Origin: Owenia fusiformis
Taxonomy: Eukaryota
Direction of reading: 5' to 3'
NCBI GenBank assembly: GCA_903813345.2
Contig: CAIIXF020000001.1
Coordinates: forward strand, 15,562,001-15,626,000
Length of the DNA: 64,000 nt
Shown here: positions 1,851 to 59,880 of the stretch, in pieces
How the letters are laid out: each line of letters opens with the position of its first letter
How positions within the stretch are numbered: position 1 is the stretch's first letter
Notes under the pieces: generated by a model
Database searches by the model: none
Told to the model about the DNA's origin: nothing
Seen by the model: only the letters and a program-made list of their open reading frames with translations
Program-made: the position numbers and the translations under genes

Positions 1851-3332
1851 TTACTCAGTAGTGTCTGTATCCATGTATTTGAATATTTTAATCTGGCTTG
1901 TCTCTTCCCCAACCATGATCTGGCCCTCGTTATTCACAGTAATCGACTGAGGGTGCCTCAGGCCATCATCAATGTTGGCCAGGCACGTGATGAATTCTCC
2001 GTCAATGTTGAACAGCAACACTTGATTCCAATACATATCAGCAACTAAAATGTGACCGTGCCTGTCTGTACATACTCCACATGGGAATCTCAGCTTGACA
2101 CCTTTACATTCTGTGATGACTTTACGCAAGAAGCCATCCTCATTGAAAATCTTTATGGTGCCACATTGTGGGTAAGTGACAATGATGTCATTGTTGATGT
2201 TCGCAGCGCAGTACGCAGCCGCCTTTCCCAATGGAAAGCCAGTCTGCATCATGACATTCTTTGGGGTGGAATCATTCTCACAGATATAGATGCTTGGGGT
2301 TCGCCAATCACAAATCACAAGATCGCCACTCGTGTTGACAGCAATGCCATGTGGTACACAGAAATGACCTTCAAACTGACGAACGAAAGTGTTGTCGGAA
2401 TTGAACACTTTCACGTTAGATTGTGTATCCTGTGTATCTGTTATCAGCATATGGCCATTTTGTAAGATACATATGTCCTGGGGGAGGCCAAACTGAAATG
2501 TTCCACCGACTAACTGCTCCACGATGAAACTTTGAATCTTCCCATTTGTGTTGAATGTTTTCACACGCCTGTTTTTCCTATCGACCACCACAATATCACC
2601 ATTGGCTTTCACTGCAAGGCCAGTGGGCCAGCTACTCTGGGGGTCTCTGTCGGTAGTTGACGTAAACTCTTTCACCAAGACAGCTTTAGCAAGGGTTCCC
2701 CCACCCACAGAACTCAATATTCCAAAACTTTTAGGAAAATCAGCCTCCTTCATTGGGCCTTCTTGAAATATAACCGAGACATGCATAGACATGGAGCGAA
2801 CAAATTCAGCTTGCGCAGAAAGAAACTGTTCTTTTAGTTTATGGCGTAAATCTTCCACATCAAGATCATCTTGGGCAAACACGGTTTCTGCAGATGCACA
2901 GAGTGCCTCCGTAACCTTAAAGTTATTTTTCAATCGTTGTAGCTGATCACTGATCAGCTTCTGGCCATCCTTATATGTGCCTTCAATAGACTTCAAGAGA
3001 TCAGATGAGTAGGTATCTAAACACATTTTCAATATCTTATGCCGGTTAGTTATGTCCTTTGCCAACTGTTCTCTACTATTCCTTATTTCACTTTTAGCAT
3101 TTGTAAGTTTTTCAATGGCTTCTTCAATATCGGGTATTTTAGCTCGTAACTTTGCTACAAGTGATTCGATAGATTCTTGCTGTCTAAAGTTATTACTATT
3201 GTTTGATTTCTCTTTATTGTTGGATGTTGAGAAATCTGTATCAAACAGCGACTTTATTTTCTTAACAGGGGGAACTGGAGTCTCATCCTCTACTGGACTC
3301 CCAGAATCCTCCCTGGTTCTGCGGACTGACAT
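1851..3332 (-). CDS. Coiled-coil + NHL-repeat beta-propeller protein (TRIM2/3/71-like C-terminal architecture), 493 aa from MSVRRT
   Basis: 513-codon ORF; helical coiled-coil segment followed by NHL repeats (WPTGLAVKANGDIVVVD, PHGIAVNTSGDLVICD, PCGVCTDRHGHILVAD, PQSITVNNEGQIMVGE). Minus-strand acceptor TTTTCAG at 3365-3359 precedes the ATG at 3332, so an upstream exon exists. Confidence 0.85.
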   Translation of the reverse strand: MSVRRTREDSGSPVEDETPVPPVKKIKSLFDTDFSTSNNKEKSNNSNNFRQQESIESLVAKLRAKIPDIEEAIEKLTNAKSEIRNSREQLAKDITNRHKILKMCLDTYSSDLLKSIEGTYKDGQKLISDQLQRLKNNFKVTEALCASAETVFAQDDLDVEDLRHKLKEQFLSAQAEFVRSMSMHVSVIFQEGPMKEADFPKSFGILSSVGGGTLAKAVLVKEFTSTTDRDPQSSWPTGLAVKANGDIVVVDRKNRRVKTFNTNGKIQSFIVEQLVGGTFQFGLPQDICILQNGHMLITDTQDTQSNVKVFNSDNTFVRQFEGHFCVPHGIAVNTSGDLVICDWRTPSIYICENDSTPKNVMMQTGFPLGKAAAYCAANINNDIIVTYPQCGTIKIFNEDGFLRKVITECKGVKLRFPCGVCTDRHGHILVADMYWNQVLLFNIDGEFITCLANIDDGLRHPQSITVNNEGQIMVGEETSQIKIFKYMDTDTTE

Positions 3333-4724
3333 TACTATGAGGTGTACGATCTCGTAACCTGAAAAACACAAATAGAAAATGTCACTATACATCGGAATTT
3401 ATGACTGGACATTAGGGACATGTATTAACATCTTAGATCATCTAATAAAAATAAATATGGTATTCTGATGCTGCCCATCACTCCTACATTCAGATCCGCT
3501 ATGCATTATTTTGTAATTTTTTGTCAGATCGCAAGATGCATATAAGGCACATGTGCAATAGCCATGAAGATATGGAAGGGGATTTTAACTTTTATAAAAT
3601 TCTGTATATAATCACTTATAAGAAAACTTCCCACTATCCATGGAGTAATCACATAGATGCCGGCCAGATCTTAAAGATGGGGAGACACAAAATCGTAAAA
3701 TTTCAAAAAAGTGACCACCCTTCAAAGCATACCTACTTCCCCATGACAGATCTTGTGCTTAATCTATAGCTGAGACCTTCATCTTTCTATTTCTACCTTT
3801 TTGGTTTGAGTAAATAAGGTATGGACACTGTAATTTAAAGGAATTCTAGGCGATAAAAAAAAAAATATTGCTTCTGGAACAAGATCAAATGACTTTTACA
3901 TACTGTATACAGTATTCTTTACCCTACCTATTTTGTAATTTAAGTATAATATAAAAAAAATAGAAAAAAATAAAGTAGTTCTTCAAGCTAGCCAAGCTAG
4001 CCTTTATACAGTTTAATCTCGGTATGCCAGCGGTCAAAATGATGCAAAAAGTAACTAATTCGGTTTACTATGGACTGAGATACATCCACAACAATTACCT
4101 CGCTAACAAGTCCTCTTGGGTATATTCTTTCAAATGACGCTGAAAATAGATGTCTAGGTGTGGTGATAAGGTGTAAATTAAATAAATTCTTCAGATTTTA
4201 TTTCATTCTTTGCAATATTTTGTCAATTTTCAACCAGAAGTTCAAAACTAGGTCAAATCGGGACGAATTTGACTAAAAATGGATACTTAGCTCCAACTAT
4301 TGACTTGATTCTTGGCCAACCTTTTTGAAATACTTACTTAGAGGGAAGCCTGACACTCTTATTACCCAGGGAGCACCTGTGTATTTTTGCAAGTGACTCA
4401 TCCTGATCCAAAAGAATCTTGTCGGAATCTTTGAATTAGGTCACCGTGAATGGCATGATGATCAATGATGATCATGATCATCATCATCATTTACTCGAGT
4501 CTCTAGATTACTCGAGGCTAGATGTAATTTCAACTGGAATACTGTGAACTCCATTTGAAAAAAGCTGGCCGGCGTGTCAAATTTATTGAATATTCTAAAA
4601 TTCGCCAGATAAATCATTAATCAAAATGCGACCGGCTCAGCTCCTTGATGAGATATTGCATGATTTCGTCGGGATGTCATCTAAAATTAAAACAAAATGG
4701 CTCCAAAAAATGGTGATATTCCAC

Positions 4725-21700: not shown

Positions 21701-22526
21701 CTGCTTATGATAAGTTATTCTTTTTATACCATGGTCAGAGCAATGGTCTCAGTATATAATAGTAAGTGATAAATCACATATTTGGGATATGGATGATATT
21801 GGGATTAGAGGGATGATATGGATATCAACCCGGGTATTTATTCAAAAATTTTCAATTTTCAAAAAAGTTATTTGTTTCAAAATTTTTCATTTTTTCAAAC
21901 ATTTTCTCTCATTCAAAAAGGATTTTAGATGTATGTTGCTCTTGACCATGGTATAAGGTCGTTATTCACCTGTCGGGATGATATTGAGAATATTCCTCGG
22001 ATGGTATCAATATTTCACTCTGTCACTGCGTTCCCTCGGGAAATATTAATATCATGTGATATTCTCCATAGCAAATCCCTCTTGGTGAATAACTTCTTTG
22101 TATATACTTTCAACTAATTTAACAATGAAACAGAAACACAATGCATGCCAAACATTATCTATTGTATTATTGTATATATGGTTATTTCATAGTTTGCACT
22201 TGTATTCAGCAACTGTGTTTCTCAAACCCAATATGGGATAAACATTTTTAGGGTTAACACGTCAGACTTAACACGTCGCTTGAAGTAGTTACAGAAACGA
22301 GAGTTCTGACGCACCTTTAACATTGAGTCCTATGGGGAGGGACACGATTTTTCATAGTACCCTCCCTAACATGGGCTCCAATGGGGAGGGACATCTGTGA
22401 GCCTCCCTGAGCTCGGGAGGCACATACGGGGACCCCACCCCTCCCCCCTCGGCGTGGTGGCGTGTACATATTTCGGGAATCTCGGGCCCTAAGAGTAACG
22501 GACGCCCTACCCCACGACTATACGTT

Positions 22527-22738
22527 CCGGAAGTTAGCCATTTTGACAGGAAGTCAGCCATTTTGACCGGAAGTCAGCCCGGAAGTCAGCCATTTAACCG
22601 GAAGTCGGCCATTTTGAAGCTTTCTAGCAGGAAGTCAGCCATTTTGCATCTGTCTGGGCAAGAGGGTGACATCATAGCGGAAGTGAGGCATCTTTTAGTC
22701 GGCCTGGGTAGGTTTTAAAACGGAAGTTAGCCATCTTT
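22527..22738 (+). promoter_or_regulatory. Cluster of GGAAGT (ETS-like) and GCCATTT (YY1-like) motifs just inside the left TIR
   Basis: About eight GGAAGT and about six GCCAT(T/C)T motifs in ~20-bp units such as CCGGAAGTCAGCCATTTT. Confidence 0.45.
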
Positions 22739-23068
22739 TCCCTACCTCCTCCCACTTCCTCCTTACCTCCTCCTTACCTCCCCCCGCCTCCTCCCTACCT
22801 CATCATTACCTCCTCCCTATATCCTCCTTACCTCTTCCCACCTCTTCCTTACCTTCTCCCACCTCCTCTCTACCTCCTCCCGCTTCCTCCTTACCTCCTC
22901 CCACCTCCTCCCTACCTCATCATTACCTCCTCCTTACCTCCTCAAACCTCTTCCTTACCTCCTCCCACCTCCTCCCTACCTCCTCCTTACCTCATACCTC
23001 CTCCTACTTCCACCCAACCTCCTCCTGTCTCTTCTCCATCTTCCAAACCTCCTCCCCTCCCTTTACTT
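22735..23068. repeat. Pyrimidine-rich (ACCTCCTCC-like) low-complexity tract
   Basis: ~330 bp of degenerate CCTCCTCC/CCTTACCT units, almost no G on the plus strand. Confidence 0.9.
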
Positions 23069-23232
23069 TAATATTCAATAGTTTATAATGTCATAAATGC
23101 CTGTTTATGTTTACAATTGATCTTAATTGACACATTTTGAACCAATCACAATACTGCACATTAGAATATTCTTATATATTTTAAGTTGTCCATGTTTTGA
23201 GTCATTTTACTGATAGATCTTGAACAGACAAC

Positions 23233-24823
23233 ATGTCTTTCAATTGTTCTGAGTGTAGTGTGAATTTTACGAGAGGTGATAACCTATCAAGGCATATGAA
23301 TAAGTTTCATGGAGAAAAAATGCATCAGTCTGATGTTATGCTGAAACATCCGTTTACTATGATAGCAGGTATAGGCATGGACATGTTGAAATTAAAAGTC
23401 TGATAGGTTTCTAAATATAGAAAGAGAGCATGTCAATTTATTAAAAAAAAAATTTTTTGTTGTATTTTCAGCCGGACCAACATCGTCGGGGAAGACCTGG
23501 CTTATGAAGCACTTGATCAAAAATGTTGAACGGTATATATCCCCAATTCCTAGAAGAATCATCTGGTGTTATGGTCAATGGCAGCCTGCCTACGAAGAGC
23601 TAAGAAAATACCCACATTTGGAATTTGTGAAGGGAATACCAGAGGATATTGATGATTCAAGATACCTTGACACTTCAGTTCCTACTTTGATACTTCTCGA
23701 TGATCTTATGAATGAGGCAACAAATGATCAACGGATATGTGATCTCTATAGCAAAGGCAGTCACCATCGAAATCTGTCTGTGATATGCCTACTCCAGAAT
23801 ATGTATCATCAAGGAAAAATGAATAGATCGATGAGCTTAAACTCTCACTATATGATACTGTTTAATAACCCGAGAGATCGCCAACAGGTGGCATTCTTAT
23901 CGAGGCAGATGTACCCCGGAAATGGAAACAAGTTGGTCAGAGCATATACCAACGCAACTAGTCGACCCTATGGTTACCTGCTTCTTGATCTGAAGCAAGA
24001 AACTTCGGAGCACAGCAGATTGAAACCAAATGCCTTTACTAAAAGTGAAGTTGAATTTGAAAGTCATCACGATTCCCGCAACTTCAAGGAACCAATGAAT
24101 GATTCAAAACACTTACTTGAAAGACAGGGTATTTCAGAAGTTGACTATCCGACGACAACATTTATAAATAGTAGTGATGTTAAGAACTACCCTTACATGG
24201 AACGTGAATTTCGAGAAGACAGCATGGTATCCTGTGATGACTGTGGTTTAGTATTTGATAGCATTCACGACTTACAGAGGCATATAAAAAAGTGGTGTCA
24301 AGATCAGGGACCACTACCCAAGAGGATGAGGACCCAATCTACCCAAAATATTGAGGAGAAGATTCCTCAAGACAAAGACAATGACGTTGATGACGATGAT
24401 GGTGATTTGAAAGCAAATGAAACATTTGCATTCTTAAAGAAGTGGTCTATAAGACAGAATGAGGAAGACCACCGACGTAAAGTGGATGAGTATATGGATA
24501 GAGGGATGGATAAGACAGAGGCTGTAGAAAAGGCAGATAATAAACTATTGTCAAAGAATAAGGAAGAATTTATAAAAGGATATAAACAATTCGTCAAGCT
24601 AACGGTTGATGTAAAAGACAATGCGTTACACAGAAATATAATTGATTCAATAAATAATATGATGAGGAGGGGTGTCTCTGTGAACTTAGCCATTAGGAAG
24701 ACACTTTTAAAAAACAAACACAAGTTTGATGAGGTCTTTATAGAGGATACAGACCAGGAAAGTAGCTCCGAGGAAGAACAGAGTGAATCCGAAAACGAGG
24801 CTGTTGAATCAAGCACTGAGTGA
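23233..24823 (+). CDS. Polinton-type A32/FtsK-like DNA-packaging ATPase with N-terminal C2H2 finger and long C-terminal extension; 2 exons (23233-23368, 23472-24823), 495 aa
   Basis: Spliced product MSFNCSECSVNFTRGDNLSRHMNKFH...KHPFTMIAAGPTSSGKTWLMKHLIKN (Walker A GPTSSGKT); Walker B LILLDD; KGSHHRNLSVICLLQN; YGYLLLD; second Zn-finger-like motif CDDC...HIKKWC; acidic tail. Confidence 0.85.
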
Positions 24824-24882
24824 TAAATATTAGCAATTTAAAGAGAGATCGTCATTAAGGAGTCAGATTCCGACAGTGTAAG

Positions 24883-25980
24883 ATGGCATATCAAGACTAT
24901 TTAAAGAAATTATACTTTGACAGTCGAAATTCTGGAGCCTTTGCTGGACCAGACAAACTCTATAGAGCTGTACTAAATGATGGGAAATACCAGCTGTCCC
25001 GTTATCAGATAAAGAAATGGCTGGACAATCAAGAAGCTTATGGCCTACAGAGACCTTATAAGAAACGATTCGCTCGTAACAAAGTATATGTCTCGCATAT
25101 TGACGAACAATGGGATGCAGATCTTATGGATGTCTCTAATATATCATCGCAGAATGACGGGATAAAGTATATCCTGGTTGCGATTGACATTATGTCTCGC
25201 TTTGCCTGGGTTAGACCGCTACACTCCAAAACTGGAAAGGCAGTGGCGGAGGCTTTCGATGATATATTGAAAGAAGGTCGACAACCAGATGTCACTAGGA
25301 CGGACAAAGGTCAAGAATTCCGCGCTAAGGTTGTACAAACATTGTTGAATAGATGGGGAGTCCGCCATTTTGTTACGGGTAATACCCCCAAGGCCAACTA
25401 TGCAGAAAGATTGATAAAGACGTTAAAGACTAAAATAATGAGGTATATCACGTACAAACAGAACCATAGATTTATAGACAATTTACAAAACTTTGTGAAG
25501 AGTTATAACGCCACTTGGCATAGGGGTATAAAAATGGCTCCTAAAAATGTATCTAAAGACGATGAATTGGTTATTTGGTGGCGGATGTATTATCCTAAAT
25601 CAACTATCGTTAAAACCAAATCTAATCACATCTTTAAATTCCCCATTGGAGCTCTGGTAAGAATTACCCAGTCGAGACATGTTTTTAGTAGAGAATACGA
25701 CCAACATTGGACAGGGGAAATTTTTAAAGTAACGAAACGTTTTATTAGGCAGGGCCTCCCATTATATCGTTTAAATGATTTTCAAAATGAAGACATTAAG
25801 GGTACTTTTTACCAATCGGAGCTTCAAAGAGTACAAGCGAATGAAGATGATATTTGGAAAGTAGAAAAAATCTTGAAAACACGAACTAGACGAGGGCAAC
25901 GGGAACATTTAGTGCGTTGGCAATATTGGCCAAAAAAGTTTGATTCGTGGGTTAAAGATTCCGATTTAATACCTTTGTAA
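24883..25980 (+). CDS. Polinton-type retroviral-like (rve/c-integrase) DDE integrase with C-terminal chromodomain
   Basis: 365-aa intact ORF: WDADLMD, RTDKGQEF, YAERLIKTLK catalytic motifs; chromodomain WKVEKILKTR...HLVRWQYWPKKFDSWV. Confidence 0.92.
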   Translation: MAYQDYLKKLYFDSRNSGAFAGPDKLYRAVLNDGKYQLSRYQIKKWLDNQEAYGLQRPYKKRFARNKVYVSHIDEQWDADLMDVSNISSQNDGIKYILVAIDIMSRFAWVRPLHSKTGKAVAEAFDDILKEGRQPDVTRTDKGQEFRAKVVQTLLNRWGVRHFVTGNTPKANYAERLIKTLKTKIMRYITYKQNHRFIDNLQNFVKSYNATWHRGIKMAPKNVSKDDELVIWWRMYYPKSTIVKTKSNHIFKFPIGALVRITQSRHVFSREYDQHWTGEIFKVTKRFIRQGLPLYRLNDFQNEDIKGTFYQSELQRVQANEDDIWKVEKILKTRTRRGQREHLVRWQYWPKKFDSWVKDSDLIPL

Positions 25981-28116
25981 TTTGTGTATGATTCAATGAA
26001 GAATTTTGAATGTTATAATGTAAATATGTATTATAGTTGATGTATTTTGAAAAGAAGTGTGTTGACGAATTAGCAAATAAATATTTATCCCAACCAAATG
26101 TAACATCCATTAAACGGTATGATCTTAAATCGATGAAGGACGTTACACTAATTAAAGTTGATGGATGGTTGATTGATAATCGATAATCGAGCTAGGTCCG
26201 CACTTTAAAGTACAGTCCAGAGTAATTTGTTTCGTAAACTGACAGCTGGATGACCTTAAAACGATAAGACCTCGCGAGTACGAAACGCCTGGTTGATAGG
26301 TAATCGATAATCCGCCTGGGCCGCACTTTATAAATAAGGCAGTGACATTTACGACGCGTACTGGTTTATCGATTTATTGTTTTTGGCGGGAATTCGAATA
26401 GTATCCTTACAGTAAACGTACAAACGTGGGGTAGGGCGTCCGTTACCTTAGGGCCCGAGATTCCCGAAATATGTACACGCCACCACGCCGAGGGGGGGAG
26501 GGGTGGGGTCCCCGTATGTGCCTCCCGAGCTCAGGGAGGCTCACAGATGTCCCTCCCCATTGGAGCCCATGTTAGGGAGGGTACTATGAAAAATCGTGTC
26601 CCTCCCCATAGGACTCCATGTTAAAGGTGCGTCAGAACTCTCGTTTCTGTAACTACTGCTTGAGGCAAGATGCATAAACTATATAATTCCACGGCTATAA
26701 CTTGAAAAACGCCACTGTTGTGTCTATGCCCCTTCTGTATCTTACCCACGGGAACCTACAAAACAGAAAAATATATACATGTAATGACATTATGAAAAGG
26801 GGAAGTCCCGTCTATATAAATCCCTAGGTTCAAGTCGTGGAAACATCCCCATATTTGCAACAAAACAATGATAAACCAAAGTCGGTAAGTAGTAGTTGTA
26901 CCATATGCATGAATTGTAGCTTTTGGGAAGGATGATAAAACGCAAAAAAATAATTTAAATACTTGGTGAAGTCTGGCATTCATGATCTGACAGGAAATTT
27001 AGGGAAAGCCTTGATTATGATTAAACGTAAAAGCAAAAGTTGACCATTGTATCTTGGAGGTTATCATGACAAATGAAGACGACCACTGAATCCAAATCCA
27101 GTTCACTAAAACAATGTATTATAAACAAATAAACTAAATCACTATTACTATTACATGTATTATAAAATAATAAATAGATAACGTGTTTTATATTCGTACA
27201 ATGATGAATACATTGCAGCAAAGAGCTTGAAACAATGTTCACTGTTTACCCAGTTTAAGTTAAACTAAATAACAGCAACGCCAAAGCGTAGAAAATTAAT
27301 ATTTGATCTTGAAAGTATTAACATCAATTGCTAAGATTTGAACATTATGCTCTTGATGCAGAACACAATAGTGTTTTACTTTAATCGAATATGTTTATAA
27401 TCATATCATATGACATTAATGATTGCGTCCCATTTCATGATTATATGGAGATGTTACCTTGACATACACGTATTTTCAGAAATATTTGTTATCGTTGGTA
27501 GAAAACGGTAGATCTAACGTACTCTGGAAAATGCCCTACCTGCCCCTGCCGTGAATTGTGTTTTAACGTTTACTTTTTATTACCTTTAAATGCTTAGTTT
27601 CATCCTTGGTCAGAGGGAATAGCAAATATGACGTAAATAAAGGGATTACAAGCTTTATTCCTGTTCTAGTCTACTGTGAAGAAACGTATACCCAGTTTTT
27701 GGGTACCCGGTTTTTTCGACCGGGTACTTTCTCGACCGGGTACCGGGTACCAAGTTGGAATCCCGCATGGAGGATTTAGTACCCGGTACCCGGTACCCGG
27801 TACCCGGTTTTTTCTACAAACCCGTGTCGGTGATATCCAATATCCAGCCACGCGCTACTGTTTACACTTGAACAGTGAATGAAATGCGTTCTTTTGATTG
27901 GTTATTGCAGAATTATCAAATGATTCAATAGTAATTAGAGTTAAATAAATACTAATTTGACGTTCATTCATGATCTAAATAATATGTGTTAGAAATTACG
28001 TACATAAAAGTCTCACTTTCATTGAAGAAAGATTTATAGATCGCCTTCATCTCCGGGCTGACCTTTGTACTTCCGGTTCAGTAATTCTAAAAAATTTTAA
28101 TAAAAATTCTAATAAA

Positions 28117-57039: not shown

Positions 57040-59880
57040 TTAGTGCTTCACTCTATGGGAATAACAATGATCCCTCCAGTCGCCATCCAAGTCACGTTCA
57101 GGTTGAGTCCTCCAATGTCTCATTCTATTCATTTTGGATAGGGGTGCCTTAGCTGAGTAAGTTCTAGGTTCCTCATCCGTACTGTCAATTCTAAGGTTGT
57201 AGTCTTCACTTAGCCCAGACACTTTACAACATCTTTTGTTCCTGGCACATCTATGTCCTCTGAAGCAGGAAAAACCAGCTAGGTCCGCAGCTGTCCTCCT
57301 AGACGATCTCTTGGGATGTGTCGAGCTGTCTCTCGTCCCAAATCTTTCTCGTTGATCTACCTCTCTGTCTTTGACTTCACTCGCTTGATCTTTAGGCACT
57401 CCTGAGTCTATAGGGTGATCAGCAAAACTTCCTTGATTCTCTGACTCAAATGTCATTTTACACTGGCGATAGTTCAATACAGCTCCAGAGGCAGCTAAGT
57501 AATCTGTGCCTAAGATTCCGTCAAAGCCAATGTCGGCCACAACAACCTCTATGTTCTCTGTATGACCATCAATGTTAACCTCAAGACATGAAACACCTTT
57601 CGTTTGCAGCGGTTGTCCACCAGCTTGCAAGATAACTCTCTTAGGCGGCTCAAGCTTGGGTCTTCTGTGTTTAGGTATATTCTGGTAGACCTTTGAACTC
57701 ATGATAGTACTAGCTGCTCCAGAGTCAACTAAAAATGAAACATTGGTGTCGCAAACTGTACCATGTGCCACTATCTTCTGAGTGTCCTTGGGAGACTGAA
57801 CATCATTCCCCTGCAGAGAAAGAAATTCAATGGTAGCAATCTGGCCAGATCTCTCATGTACTGTTTTATCTCGCTCTTCGGCACGCTTCCTTGAATAACA
57901 ATCAGCTATCCGGTGACCAGGCTTGTGACAATAGAAACATTTAGGTCTATTGTTCATGTTCTCCCTATTTGTAGATTCCAATCTGGTTAACTTCATCAGG
58001 TCAACCATTTTCTCCAGGTTCTTGGTGCAAGCTTCTTGCACAGCTTGTTGCATTTGTTCTATCATTTGAGCCATCTTCTGGAACACATCTTCCTTATTAT
58101 CAGGAGTACTTACTGAGTTGCAGTACTCTTCCTCGGAATCGATGAAGTTCACCCTTAACTTTGGTTTTTGGCCTTTCCTTATTCGTTCTGATTCTAGAAA
58201 CGACTCCTCCTTGAGGGCTACTTCTATGGCCTTATCGAGTGTAATGCATTCCTTCAAGTGTATTGTTCGTCTTATATCATCATCCTGAATAGCTTGCTCA
58301 AAGCTCCGTCTCGCTAGGCGATCTTGGGCTGACTGGCTCATCTCCGGATAAGCTAAAGCTGTGAGCCTGCGGATGTCCTGACCCAATGCCGGAAGGGATT
58401 CCTTTGGTTTTCGAATTCGGCCAACTAACTCTGCCTCATAGACGTCAGCTTTACCCCCAGGGCCAAAACGCTTCTCCAGGGCTAGGAGGAGTTGATCGTA
58501 GCTATAATCATGTCCCATCTCTAGCACTATTTGTTGGGCAGGTCCTCTCAGACTTGTTGCTAAGAACCTCCTCTTCTCCTCTTCCGACCATTTATTAGCC
58601 TCCCCACAAATCTCGAAATATGCTCTGTAATCTTGCCATGGTGTAGTTCCAGAATAAACGTCAGGTTTTATTTTGCTTTTGCTGGATTGTTGAGAAGTTC
58701 CTTTTACAAGTTTATCACATAACTTGGAGCACATTTTGACAAGCTCTGCTGATAGATTTGAACCATGAAGGCTATCATCATTTTCCGATCTGTCCACTGA
58801 ACCAGCTGGCTTTGGACTAGGAGATCTCTTCTTTGGTGAATCTTTAGGTTGATTAAGTGGCTCTTTCTTCCGGAATGGAGAAAAGCATTGAAAAGAGGTG
58901 GAATCAGCATGCTCATCCCCTGACTTGTCCCCAATTGGACCAAAACCCTCTAAATCTTCAGGTTGCTGCTGATTGAATTCCTGGGTTTTATCCTCCATCA
59001 AATTTGAACCGGGACTCAGCAAAACTTTATCTTGCCTACGCAGCTGCCAAGGCTTTGTCACACCTGAAGCCAATGGGGTAGGTGTAAAACAGTCTTCAGA
59101 CCTGGTGATTGAGGTAGTTTTTGGCATTGTAGGCTGATGTTGGCTATCATCCATCAAGGAAGTCTGCATTCTGGTGACATTTCCTGCATGACGGGGGTTA
59201 TCATATGATGGTGGAATACTAGCTTGAATTTTCTCCATCTGACTCTTGATACCCTGTAGTTGTGTCTGTTGTTGATCCTGACAACGTCGAACTTGCTCTG
59301 CGATCTGGGTAATGTTGTGTACTTGAGTACTTTGAGTCTCCAATACTTGCTTCATACACTTCTGTTGGGTTTCAGCCAAGTTTTGCATCTGTCTTTGTTG
59401 AGCCACCAAAGATTCACTAAACATCTCAATCCTTCTCTCAATCTTGCTTTCTATTACGTTTAAGTCTGGTCTCCTTGGATCCTCTTCTCTAAACCTCCTG
59501 GTTGATCCGCCAACAACAGAAGAAGTTAAAGGAAATCTTTGTCTTCCTTGGGGATCTCTTCTTTGAGAGATGGGGTCAAATGGCGTCTCAAGTTCTGTCG
59601 ATACACCTCCTGTCCAATATCCTGTACTCGATAAACTGGGCAACCCTCTCTGCTCAGTATTAATCTCAGTCATTTTGGGTCTGGCTCCTTCTGCCAGGGT
59701 GACCTTCCCAGGGGACTGTTCCTGTTCCGCATCATCTTCTATCACTGGTGCTGTCTCATCAGCGGCACCTGGATTATCGATTTCCATATCATCTGACTTA
59801 AGAAAAACTGTTTTCTCCAGGTCCCCCTCAGTTACGTCCTCAACAGCTGGAGGAGGTGGAAAGTCAGTTCCTTGTTCCAT
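57040..59880 (-). CDS. Gag-protease polyprotein (946 aa), no RT/RNaseH/integrase
   Basis: Gypsy capsid-like region KPDVYSGTTPWQDYRAYFE...WSEEEK...LRGPA; zinc knuckle CFYCHKPGHRIADC; aspartic protease FLVDSGA...GILGTDYL. Confidence 0.92.
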   Translation of the reverse strand: MEQGTDFPPPPAVEDVTEGDLEKTVFLKSDDMEIDNPGAADETAPVIEDDAEQEQSPGKVTLAEGARPKMTEINTEQRGLPSLSSTGYWTGGVSTELETPFDPISQRRDPQGRQRFPLTSSVVGGSTRRFREEDPRRPDLNVIESKIERRIEMFSESLVAQQRQMQNLAETQQKCMKQVLETQSTQVHNITQIAEQVRRCQDQQQTQLQGIKSQMEKIQASIPPSYDNPRHAGNVTRMQTSLMDDSQHQPTMPKTTSITRSEDCFTPTPLASGVTKPWQLRRQDKVLLSPGSNLMEDKTQEFNQQQPEDLEGFGPIGDKSGDEHADSTSFQCFSPFRKKEPLNQPKDSPKKRSPSPKPAGSVDRSENDDSLHGSNLSAELVKMCSKLCDKLVKGTSQQSSKSKIKPDVYSGTTPWQDYRAYFEICGEANKWSEEEKRRFLATSLRGPAQQIVLEMGHDYSYDQLLLALEKRFGPGGKADVYEAELVGRIRKPKESLPALGQDIRRLTALAYPEMSQSAQDRLARRSFEQAIQDDDIRRTIHLKECITLDKAIEVALKEESFLESERIRKGQKPKLRVNFIDSEEEYCNSVSTPDNKEDVFQKMAQMIEQMQQAVQEACTKNLEKMVDLMKLTRLESTNRENMNNRPKCFYCHKPGHRIADCYSRKRAEERDKTVHERSGQIATIEFLSLQGNDVQSPKDTQKIVAHGTVCDTNVSFLVDSGAASTIMSSKVYQNIPKHRRPKLEPPKRVILQAGGQPLQTKGVSCLEVNIDGHTENIEVVVADIGFDGILGTDYLAASGAVLNYRQCKMTFESENQGSFADHPIDSGVPKDQASEVKDREVDQRERFGTRDSSTHPKRSSRRTAADLAGFSCFRGHRCARNKRCCKVSGLSEDYNLRIDSTDEEPRTYSAKAPLSKMNRMRHWRTQPERDLDGDWRDHCYSHRVKH

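What the first reader, a model, noticed from the sequence alone, without database searches (positions are those of the whole stretch)
22278..26663. Two-gene 4.4-kb mini-Polinton: integrase plus packaging ATPase, no polymerase, capsid or protease
Seen: AGTAGT termini, near-identical ~233-bp TIRs, perfect 6-bp TSD GCTTGA, and two intact tandem ORFs filling most of the interior. Known: Polintons/Mavericks are usually ~15-20 kb with pPolB, capsid proteins, protease, ATPase and integrase, AG-rich termini and 6-bp TSDs. Inference: intact ends and ORFs suggest a recently mobile streamlined unit rather than a decayed relic. It could be a satellite that uses a helper Polinton/adintovirus for replication and capsids while supplying its own packaging ATPase and integrase, or a cut-and-paste transposon in which the ATPase has been repurposed.
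Basis: partly seen in the sequence, partly recalled or inferred. Interest (0 to 1): 0.85.

Follow-up and report, generated by a model that had tools for sequence, protein, structure and literature searches.

The report
Two-gene Polinton sharing ends with helpers
This is a real, recently spreading 4.4-kb virus-like transposon that keeps only an integrase and a DNA-packaging motor, and it shares its ends with two other young elements in the same animal genome, one carrying the polymerase and one the capsid genes, so together they look like a Polinton virus split into cooperating pieces.

Summary
Confirmed, with corrections. The element is 22284-26657, with 243-bp TIRs and TSD GCTTGA. Its ATPase is zinc-finger-fused and split by an inferred intron. 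The genome holds 15 full-length young copies (97.7-99.96% identical), each with its own perfect 6-bp TSD. Two other young classes carry the same ends: B (9.3 kb, 4 copies; pPolB, ATPase, integrase; no capsid) and C (8 kb, 5 copies; double-jelly-roll capsid, protease, ATPase; no pPolB or integrase, yet perfect TSDs). None of 67 end matches flanks a complete Polinton. The element (class A) is a chimera: a pPolB deletion of capsid-less family D that took B's ends and integrase, with four different crossover points among copies. TIR variants are shared across A, B and C. Best reading: a polymerase-dependent satellite in an end-sharing consortium. Packaging, splicing and selection on the ATPase within A are not shown; purifying selection is shown only between capsid-less families (dN/dS 0.04-0.08). 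Earlier scan notes saw an older copy in this genome and other partial Polintons here and in other genomes; my look-ups returned no note on the A/B/C end-sharing.

The parts
22278..22283 (.). left target-site duplication GCTTGA
22284..26657 (+). class A two-gene Polinton derivative, 4,374 bp
   Evidence: 14 further full-length copies at 97.7-99.96% identity
22284..22526 (+). left TIR, 243 bp, B-family type, starts AGTAGT
   Evidence: 96-99% identical to B and C ends
22527..22730 (+). D-family subterminal segment with short tandem CCGGAAGT-type repeats
   Evidence: 78% to D element L068/9, up to 92% to D locus L041, no match in B
22731..22741 (.). junction where about 5.2 kb of family D, including pPolB, is missing; same junction in the D-ended copy L051
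   Evidence: A 244-447 matches D 59-302, A 458 onward matches D 5547 onward
22740..23060 (+). pyrimidine-rich degenerate tandem repeat, part of D's pPolB-ATPase spacer
23233..23368 (+). ATPase gene exon 1: start codon, C2H2 zinc finger, strand before Walker A
   Evidence: (zf-C2H2 E 3.1e-5, just under the curated cut-off)
23369..23471 (+). inferred spliceosomal intron, 103 nt, GT..AG, phase 1
   Evidence: same place in 7 of 7 capsid-less loci tested, absent in full-length F; splicing not seen in RNA
23472..24823 (+). ATPase gene exon 2: A32/FtsK-HerA packaging-type ATPase (to about 24040), second C2H2-like finger (about 24230-24292), helical domain (about 24400-24750), acidic tail; D-family type
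   Evidence: 94-96% aa to D, 58% to B
24883..25980 (+). rve integrase with C-terminal chromodomain, 365 aa; D-type N-terminus, B-type core and C-terminus
25048..25063 (.). D-to-B crossover interval inside the integrase gene
   Evidence: last of the dense mismatches to B at 25047, first dense mismatch to D at 25064
25981..26414 (+). non-coding right arm, B-family type
   Evidence: 99-100% to B
26415..26657 (-). right TIR, ends ACTACT
26658..26663 (.). right target-site duplication GCTTGA

Best explanation
The element (class A) is a polymerase-dependent satellite inside an end-sharing Polinton consortium. Shown: A, B (pPolB+ATPase+integrase) and C (capsid module) carry the same ends, are all young, and integrate with 6-bp TSDs; C does so with no integrase of its own, so integrase acts in trans on these ends. 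A arose from capsid-less family D by loss of pPolB, then took B's ends and, at several independent crossovers, B's integrase. Inferred (about 0.8): A is copied as a free linear DNA by B's protein-primed polymerase, which explains the exchange and left-right matching of TIR variants, and out-replicates B because it is short. Inferred (about 0.7): its own B-type integrase inserts it. Inferred (about 0.4): its zinc-finger ATPase loads A DNA into capsids made by C or its parent family G.
For: Same ends on three complementary gene sets. None of 67 end matches lies on an element with both pPolB and MCP. 0 of 49 ATPase matches at >=71% lie within 20 kb of an MCP match, and 0 of 22 C/G-clade MCP rows within 20 kb of a pPolB match. 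C has perfect TSDs in 5 of 5 copies without integrase. Similar youth: A median 7 substitutions per 4.4 kb, B 99.6-99.9%, C 98.8-99.9%. Four crossover positions with B. The same TIR variants (positions 9, 34, 41, 74, 210) recur across classes and often on both ends of one copy. The ATPase is under strong purifying selection between capsid-less families, dN/dS 0.04-0.08, and has a packaging-ATPase fold. Other TSD-bounded minis in the genome also keep an ATPase.
Against: No virion, free DNA or excision product was observed; one assembly only. C already encodes its own ATPase (32% identical to A's), so A's is not needed for a capsid to be filled. Within young A copies ATPase exon 2 shows 8 non-synonymous and 7 synonymous sites and the integrase 2 and 1: too few to prove selection in the two-gene form, and some may be recombined-in D alleles. 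Older copies L048-L050 and L072 have B ends and TSDs with a D-type integrase core, so a matching integrase in cis is not required. Left and right TIRs are not fully matched (a one-base difference near position 210 persists in nearly all A copies; several copies share no variant between ends). RNA is sparse (43, 23 and 61 reads), partly carries other alleles, and shows no splice joint. A has no small core-protein gene, which the other minis keep.
Confidence: 0.6

Rival explanations
1. Ordinary non-autonomous deletion derivative: A is copied by B's polymerase and integrated by any compatible integrase; its ATPase (and perhaps its integrase) merely ride along because the deletion is recent, and C is an unrelated hitch-hiker on the same ends. 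No packaging takes place.
For: A's ancestor is a plain pPolB deletion of family D (L051). The two-gene form is only a few percent diverged (97.8% to L051), too young for an unused gene to decay. Selection within A is weak. Many other partial Polintons with assorted gene sets exist in this genome.
Against: The ATPase is kept under dN/dS 0.04-0.08 across the whole capsid-less clade, so it does something without a capsid gene in cis. Diverged ATPase-plus-small-ORF minis are abundant (26 and 21 matches in two identity bands, none near MCP or pPolB matches). The burst subfamily is the one that gained the B-type integrase core. A copies with broken or deleted genes are single (L002, L004, L023).
Confidence: 0.25
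2. Autonomous cut-and-paste transposon: the integrase excises and reinserts A, and the ATPase has become a transposition helper (target capture or DNA translocation), in the manner of two-gene bacterial transposons (analogy recalled, not tested).
For: Open integrase and ATPase in 13 of 15 copies. A outnumbers B about four to one. The capsid-less clade keeps the ATPase under selection and has gained introns, which fits a non-virion role. The ATPase always lies directly upstream of the integrase.
Against: Cut-and-paste does not predict repeated crossovers with B, replacement of both ends after a one-sided exchange, or TIR variants shared by A, B and C. The pPolB-ATPase-integrase order is simply inherited from full-length relatives. 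The fold matches virion packaging ATPases first. ATPase minis without any integrase are common.
Confidence: 0.12
3. Assembly artefact, segmental duplication or host-domesticated locus.
For: Copies are nearly identical.
Against: Copies lie on 8 different contigs (C1, C2, C3, C7-C11), identity stops exactly at the termini, and each has its own TSD. The stretch is also held by 16 public runs at half its words or more (not independent of the assembly's source for certain).
Confidence: 0.01

Closest known systems
Autonomous Polintons/Mavericks (polintoviruses, adintoviruses)
   Same: AGT-repeat ends, long TIRs, 6-bp TSD (PMC8097293, passages), rve integrase, FtsK-like packaging ATPase (PMC4028283, passages); gene order inherited from pPolB-ATPase-INT-mCP-MCP-PRO relatives.
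   Different: 4.4 kb instead of 15-20 kb; no pPolB, MCP, penton or protease; intron in the ATPase, whereas intact vertebrate Mavericks are intronless (PMC8097293); polymerase and capsid genes lie on separate elements with the same ends.
Capsid-less Polintons (Krupovic et al. 2014, PMC4028283)
   Same: Loss of the capsid genes; transposon-like state.
   Different: There, nine MCP-less elements had also lost protease and ATPase together (passage; by my arithmetic 9 of 13; Table S1 not seen). Here the capsid-less clade keeps the ATPase under purifying selection, and A has lost pPolB too.
Non-autonomous Polintons (recalled from Kapitonov and Jurka 2006 and Repbase; not read here)
   Same: Short elements with Polinton ends moved in trans.
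   Different: As recalled, these are largely non-coding deletion products; A keeps two open genes and is a chimera of two helper families.
Separately mobile replication modules / transpovirons (bioRxiv 10.64898/2026.10.13.758929, passages and section 13)
   Same: That preprint proposes, as speculative, that replication-integration modules move apart from morphogenic modules; class B fits its description (pPolB plus DDE integrase, no capsid).
   Different: Here both modules are seen as separate young multi-copy elements sharing ends in one animal genome, plus a third, polymerase-less unit (A).
Integrase-less polinton-like viruses of Lepidoptera (PMC11296320, abstract and passages)
   Same: An integrated element without a detectable integrase, with integration in trans suggested.
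   Different: Here the likely donors (A and B) are identified by shared ends and TSD length; no poxvirus helper is implied.
Phage satellites that encode their own packaging functions (PICI, PLE, P4; recalled)
   Same: Works like: keeps integrase and a packaging component, borrows the rest.
   Different: No homology claimed; eukaryotic; packaging not shown here.

Membership tests
Autonomous Polinton/Maverick | long TIRs with AG/AGT-repeat termini | tested here: met
   243-bp TIRs, AGTAGT..ACTACT
Autonomous Polinton/Maverick | 6-bp target-site duplication | tested here: met
   16 of 16 young copies
Autonomous Polinton/Maverick | rve-family integrase | tested here: met
   Pfam rve E 7.9e-11 plus chromo; 73% identical to the integrase of full-length relative F
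Autonomous Polinton/Maverick | FtsK/A32-type packaging ATPase | tested here: met
   Foldseek: IVa2 E 7e-7, A32-like ATPases; STIV2 B204 Z 12.9, rmsd 3.5, 172 aligned, tied with VirB4 and DndH at 12.6; many homologs carry PF04665
Autonomous Polinton/Maverick | protein-primed DNA polymerase B | tested here: not met
   no ORF or tblastn remnant in the element; present in end-sharing class B
Autonomous Polinton/Maverick | major and minor capsid proteins, protease | tested here: not met
   absent from A; present in end-sharing class C (MCP fold E 1.8e-16; Peptidase_C5 E 1.4e-4; minor capsid label rests on position and 35% identity to F's gene, not on a fold)
Autonomous Polinton/Maverick | size 15-20 kb, intronless genes | tested here: not met
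   4,374 bp; inferred intron
Non-autonomous Polinton derivative | Polinton ends and TSD, core genes missing, partner with the same ends present | tested here: met
Satellite virus / segment of a multipartite virus | genome replicated by a helper's polymerase | tested here: inconclusive
   indirect only: crossovers with B and shared TIR variants
Satellite virus / segment of a multipartite virus | genome packaged in the partner's capsid | not testable with these tools
   needs capsid-protected DNA from the host
Ginger-type cut-and-paste integrase transposon | TGT..ACA termini, integrase as sole core gene (recalled) | tested here: not met
   termini AGTAGT..ACTACT, second gene is a viral ATPase
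Cut-and-paste transposon (any) | excision from donor sites | not testable with these tools
   needs population or pedigree sequencing

The most novel reading that the evidence does not exclude
A, B and C are segments of a naturally multipartite Polinton virus of an animal: B replicates and integrates, C (from family G) builds the capsid, and A is a satellite segment whose zinc-finger ATPase packages its own DNA. Ends and modules are swapped among co-replicating linear genomes, so the unit of inheritance is the shared terminus and not a single genome.
Probability: 0.3. Interest if true: 0.92.

Novelty: new variant of a known kind. Interest (0 to 1): 0.76.

Why it matters
Polintons are treated as single 15-20-kb units whose replication and particles have been inferred and hardly observed. 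This genome shows the replication module, the capsid module and an integrase-ATPase unit as separate, young, multi-copy elements that share and exchange one terminus. That is sequence evidence for complementation in trans (C integrates without an integrase) and for the separate mobility of modules that a 2026 preprint called speculative. It offers a route by which Polinton modules reassort, and by which a virus could become a two-gene transposon. It also makes open questions testable in a living host: which DNAs are found in capsids, whether one polymerase serves all elements with the same ends, and why capsid-less elements keep a packaging motor.

Tried and rejected
1) A full-length helper with the same ends: not found. 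Of 67 end matches, 60 belong to A, older A, B or C copies; the 7 others, read with 20-30 kb on the inner side, were solo or truncated ends or broken capsid-module copies. The search is a lower bound and covers one assembly. 2) Simple deletion of B: rejected, since the ATPase is only 58% identical to B's. 3) RNA: no RNA holder was listed as such. Three raw RNA runs, read at 6-12% of their size, gave 43, 23 and 61 reads and no joint above the listing threshold; a contig of run X1 (RNA status a guess) spans the intron unspliced. This neither shows nor excludes splicing. 4) Same two-gene unit elsewhere: viral contigs gave no relative. Among the best 80 of 391 metagenome loci none was a TIR-bounded ATPase+integrase unit; most contigs are short, and the long ones mostly show the full gene order. 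5) The C-terminal helical domain got no separate fold search; the whole-model search covered residues 1-201 only, so its fold is untested. 6) Pfam and PHROGs do not name A's ATPase, the MCP or the minor capsid protein. 7) No polymerase-bearing element with G's outer ends was found among 18 loci tested, only an inner TIR piece in B. 8) No complex prediction was run. 9) Eight paper searches listed no description of such an element or of an end-sharing split Polinton; the library lacks most subscription papers and Repbase.
Full report
1. Observation. The element lies at 22284-26657 (4,374 bp) between two copies of GCTTGA, starts AGTAGT and has 243-bp TIRs at 97.5% identity. The integrase frame (24883-25980, 365 aa) has rve and chromo domains; D80, D141 and E175 are the likely catalytic triad by recalled motif. 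The ATPase gene starts at 23233 with a C2H2 finger and is broken just before Walker A by a 103-nt GT..AG segment. I read it as an intron because it keeps the frame, sits at the same codon in 7 of 7 capsid-less loci tested with different lengths (86-115 nt), and is absent in the full-length relative F and in the three ATPase minis checked. Exon 2 has Walker A (GPTSSGKT) and Walker B (LILLDD) by recalled motif. Its model (mean pLDDT 79) matches adenovirus IVa2 and A32-like packaging ATPases and STIV2 B204 (Z 12.9, tied with two other FtsK-HerA proteins). The ZnF-ATPase-helical fusion is widespread: 835 homologs, the named ones among the 120 listed mostly from bivalves. No remnant of pPolB, capsid, protease or core protein was found. 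The host is an animal with a 500-Mb assembly; earlier scan notes call it an annelid, which I did not test.

2. The family. Searching the own genome with the TIR gave 15 full-length copies including this one, and one deleted copy; 16 of 16 have perfect and different 6-bp TSDs. Among 15 copies compared (the window, 13 full-length and the deleted one; the recombinant L011 left out) the median pairwise difference is 7 substitutions, maximum 27. 13 of 15 full-length copies keep both frames open: L004 has frameshifts in the ATPase, L002 an insertion in the integrase. Six older, mostly broken copies exist (L047-L051, L072). L048 lies where the earlier scan note e1-7276535 was made.

3. Two partners with the same ends. 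Class B (9.3 kb, 4 copies, 99.6-99.9% identical) encodes an interrupted pPolB (PHROGs DNA polymerase E 2.4e-5; 56-83% identical by segment to F's pPolB), a ZnF-ATPase and an integrase, and no capsid gene. Class C (about 8 kb, 5 copies, 98.8-99.9%) encodes a double-jelly-roll MCP (model pLDDT 89; best Foldseek E 1.8e-16, matches to iridovirus, Sputnik, PBCV-1 and mavirus capsids), a C5 protease, a putative minor capsid protein, a small basic ORF and its own ATPase (32% to A's), but neither pPolB nor integrase. All 9 B and C copies have perfect TSDs. C is itself a chimera: B's left 477 bp at both ends around the capsid module of family G (97%), whose integrase was dropped. An inner-TIR pattern found 67 ends; 60 belong to A, older A, B or C, and the other 7 are solo or truncated ends or broken capsid-module copies. 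None flanks an element with both pPolB and MCP. Genome-wide, 0 of 49 ATPase matches at 71% or more lie within 20 kb of any of 96 MCP match rows, and 0 of 22 C/G-clade MCP rows within 20 kb of a pPolB match (44 pPolB loci, one per place, taken from the 68 rows; these searches are lower bounds and weak for distant polymerases).

4. Origin of A. A is not a deletion of B. Its left arm and ATPase come from another capsid-less pPolB family, D (ATPase 94-96% aa to D, 58% to B); its integrase core, right arm and TIRs come from B (99-100% nt). Copy L051 has D ends, a D integrase and the same pPolB-deletion junction, so the two-gene form arose in D first. Later copies have B ends, with the D-to-B switch at four different places: near the integrase 3' end (L048, L072), about nt 620-650 of the integrase (L049, L050), at window 25048-25063 (the young burst and L047), and upstream of the integrase (L011). 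A one-sided crossover gives one B end; both ends being B-type points to copying of one TIR from the other, as expected for protein-primed linear replication (established for adenoviruses; recalled). TIR variants at positions 9, 34, 41, 74 and 210 recur across A, B and C and often stand on both ends of one copy (for example six variants on both ends of L047), though several copies show no such matching (29 elements).

5. Selection. The intron-bearing ATPases of A, B, D, E, L037 and L044 form one clade (support 91/94, just under the starred threshold), none of whose members has a capsid gene nearby. Between families the ATPase domain has dN/dS 0.037-0.077 (A against L037, L038-40; B against L044; L041 against L038), and 0.05-0.23 between A and its five nearest D loci. 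So the ATPase is maintained without a capsid gene in cis. Within young A copies the counts are small (8 non-synonymous and 7 synonymous sites) and do not prove selection in the two-gene form. In full-length relatives the same ATPase sits between pPolB and integrase (F; long metagenome loci) and is the only ATPase found in F, so its ancestral role is packaging. Krupovic et al. (PMC4028283, passages) report that nine MCP-less Polintons had also lost protease and ATPase; the clade here departs from that pattern.

6. Expression and distribution. Sixteen public runs of the same coded organism hold at least half of the stretch. Three RNA runs gave 43, 23 and 61 reads, some with other alleles, and no listed joint; contigs of run X1 break at the crossover interval and span the intron unspliced. 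Expression of A itself and splicing are therefore open. No TIR-bounded ATPase+integrase unit was seen among 80 metagenome loci, and viral contigs gave no relative.

7. Mechanism. Shown: shared ends, complementary gene sets, similar youth, integration of C in trans, chimeric origin with repeated exchange. Inferred: B's polymerase copies A and C as free linear DNA; A's and B's integrases insert all three; A spreads faster because it is short. Least certain: that C or G capsids package A and B with the help of their own zinc-finger ATPase. In favour, ATPase minis without integrase are abundant in this genome and one group shares ends with full-length F, which suggests an advantage to carrying one's own motor. 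Against, C has an ATPase already and A lacks the small basic gene those minis keep. Rivals are a passive derivative (0.25) and an autonomous cut-and-paste element with a repurposed ATPase (0.12).

8. Comparison and novelty. A has Polinton ends, TSD, integrase and ATPase but fails the pPolB, capsid, protease, size and intronless tests, so it is a non-autonomous Polinton derivative and not an autonomous Polinton; it works like a satellite. Papers seen: PMC4028283, PMC8097293, PMC8502044, PMC6431247, PMC3014272 and 10.1101/2023.08.22.554363 (passages); PMC11296320 (abstract and passages); 10.64898/2026.10.13.758929 (passages and section 13, which treats separate mobility of replication modules as speculative). 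No supplements were read; Table S1 of PMC4028283 may list MCP-less elements that keep an ATPase. Kapitonov and Jurka 2006, Pritham 2007 and Repbase were not read; non-autonomous Polintons there are recalled. Eight searches listed no description of a two-gene ATPase-integrase family or of an end-sharing split Polinton. Earlier scan notes (unchecked AI notes) report an older copy of this element and other partial Polintons in this and other genomes; look-ups for a segmented, shared-TIR system or by the integrase sequence returned nothing.

9. Verdict. Real, young and multi-copy; a new variant of a known kind. Interest 0.76. The boldest reading not excluded, a multipartite Polinton virus with A as a satellite segment, has probability about 0.3 and would merit about 0.92.

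Noticed in passing
L054, L055, L058 (7.1-7.6 kb); L056, L057 (3.9-4.3 kb); L059, L060, L066 (5.1-6.6 kb); L061-L063: Several families of AGTAG-ended minis (TSD found for 9 of these 11) keep a diverged ATPase and, in most, one small basic ORF related to C's orf124, with no integrase, polymerase or capsid. L056 and L057 share ends with full-length element F.
   Followed up: partly
L084, L085; L088-89, L094-95; F = G000:C3:31497901-31512420: A second split set around the full-length 14.5-kb Polinton F: pPolB-less copies (8.2-8.5 kb, 96% to F, same ends) and pPolB-only derivatives (6.8-7.7 kb) with TSDs. 23 of 24 ATPase matches in that identity band lie near an MCP match but only 2 near a pPolB match.
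   Followed up: partly
L027, L029, L030 (family G): Integrase plus capsid module without pPolB, 8.6-11.5 kb with TSDs; parent of class C (97%). B's left arm holds a piece of G's TIR.
   Followed up: partly
L191-L194 (G000:C4, 30.41-30.52 Mb): Two older, broken capsid-module copies carry the A/B/C end at a different junction from C: possibly an independent earlier capture of these ends.
   Followed up: partly
L013, L038-40, L041-43, L044, L068-71, L090-93: pPolB genes of all capsid-less families read are interrupted, at partly different places, while F's pPolB is one 1,287-codon frame: intron gain appears to track capsid loss. Splicing not shown.
   Followed up: partly
L037:1067-9623: 8.6-kb capsid-less element with 2,386-bp inverted arms that duplicate the integrase at both ends; TSD present.
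   Followed up: no
L025:201-9548: Class C copy with a tandem duplication of its first 1.4 kb including an inner terminus.
   Followed up: no
window 1851-3392 (-): Single-frame 513-aa NHL-repeat protein (Pfam NHL E 2.5e-21), a host gene.
   Followed up: no
window 57040-59880 (-): 946-aa gag-protease-like frame (Asp_protease_2, PNMA), probably an LTR retrotransposon.
   Followed up: no
L101 (metagenome contig, 4,242 bp): ATPase homolog on a contig with 339-bp inverted ends and no other Polinton gene detected: a possible ATPase mini from another organism.
   Followed up: no
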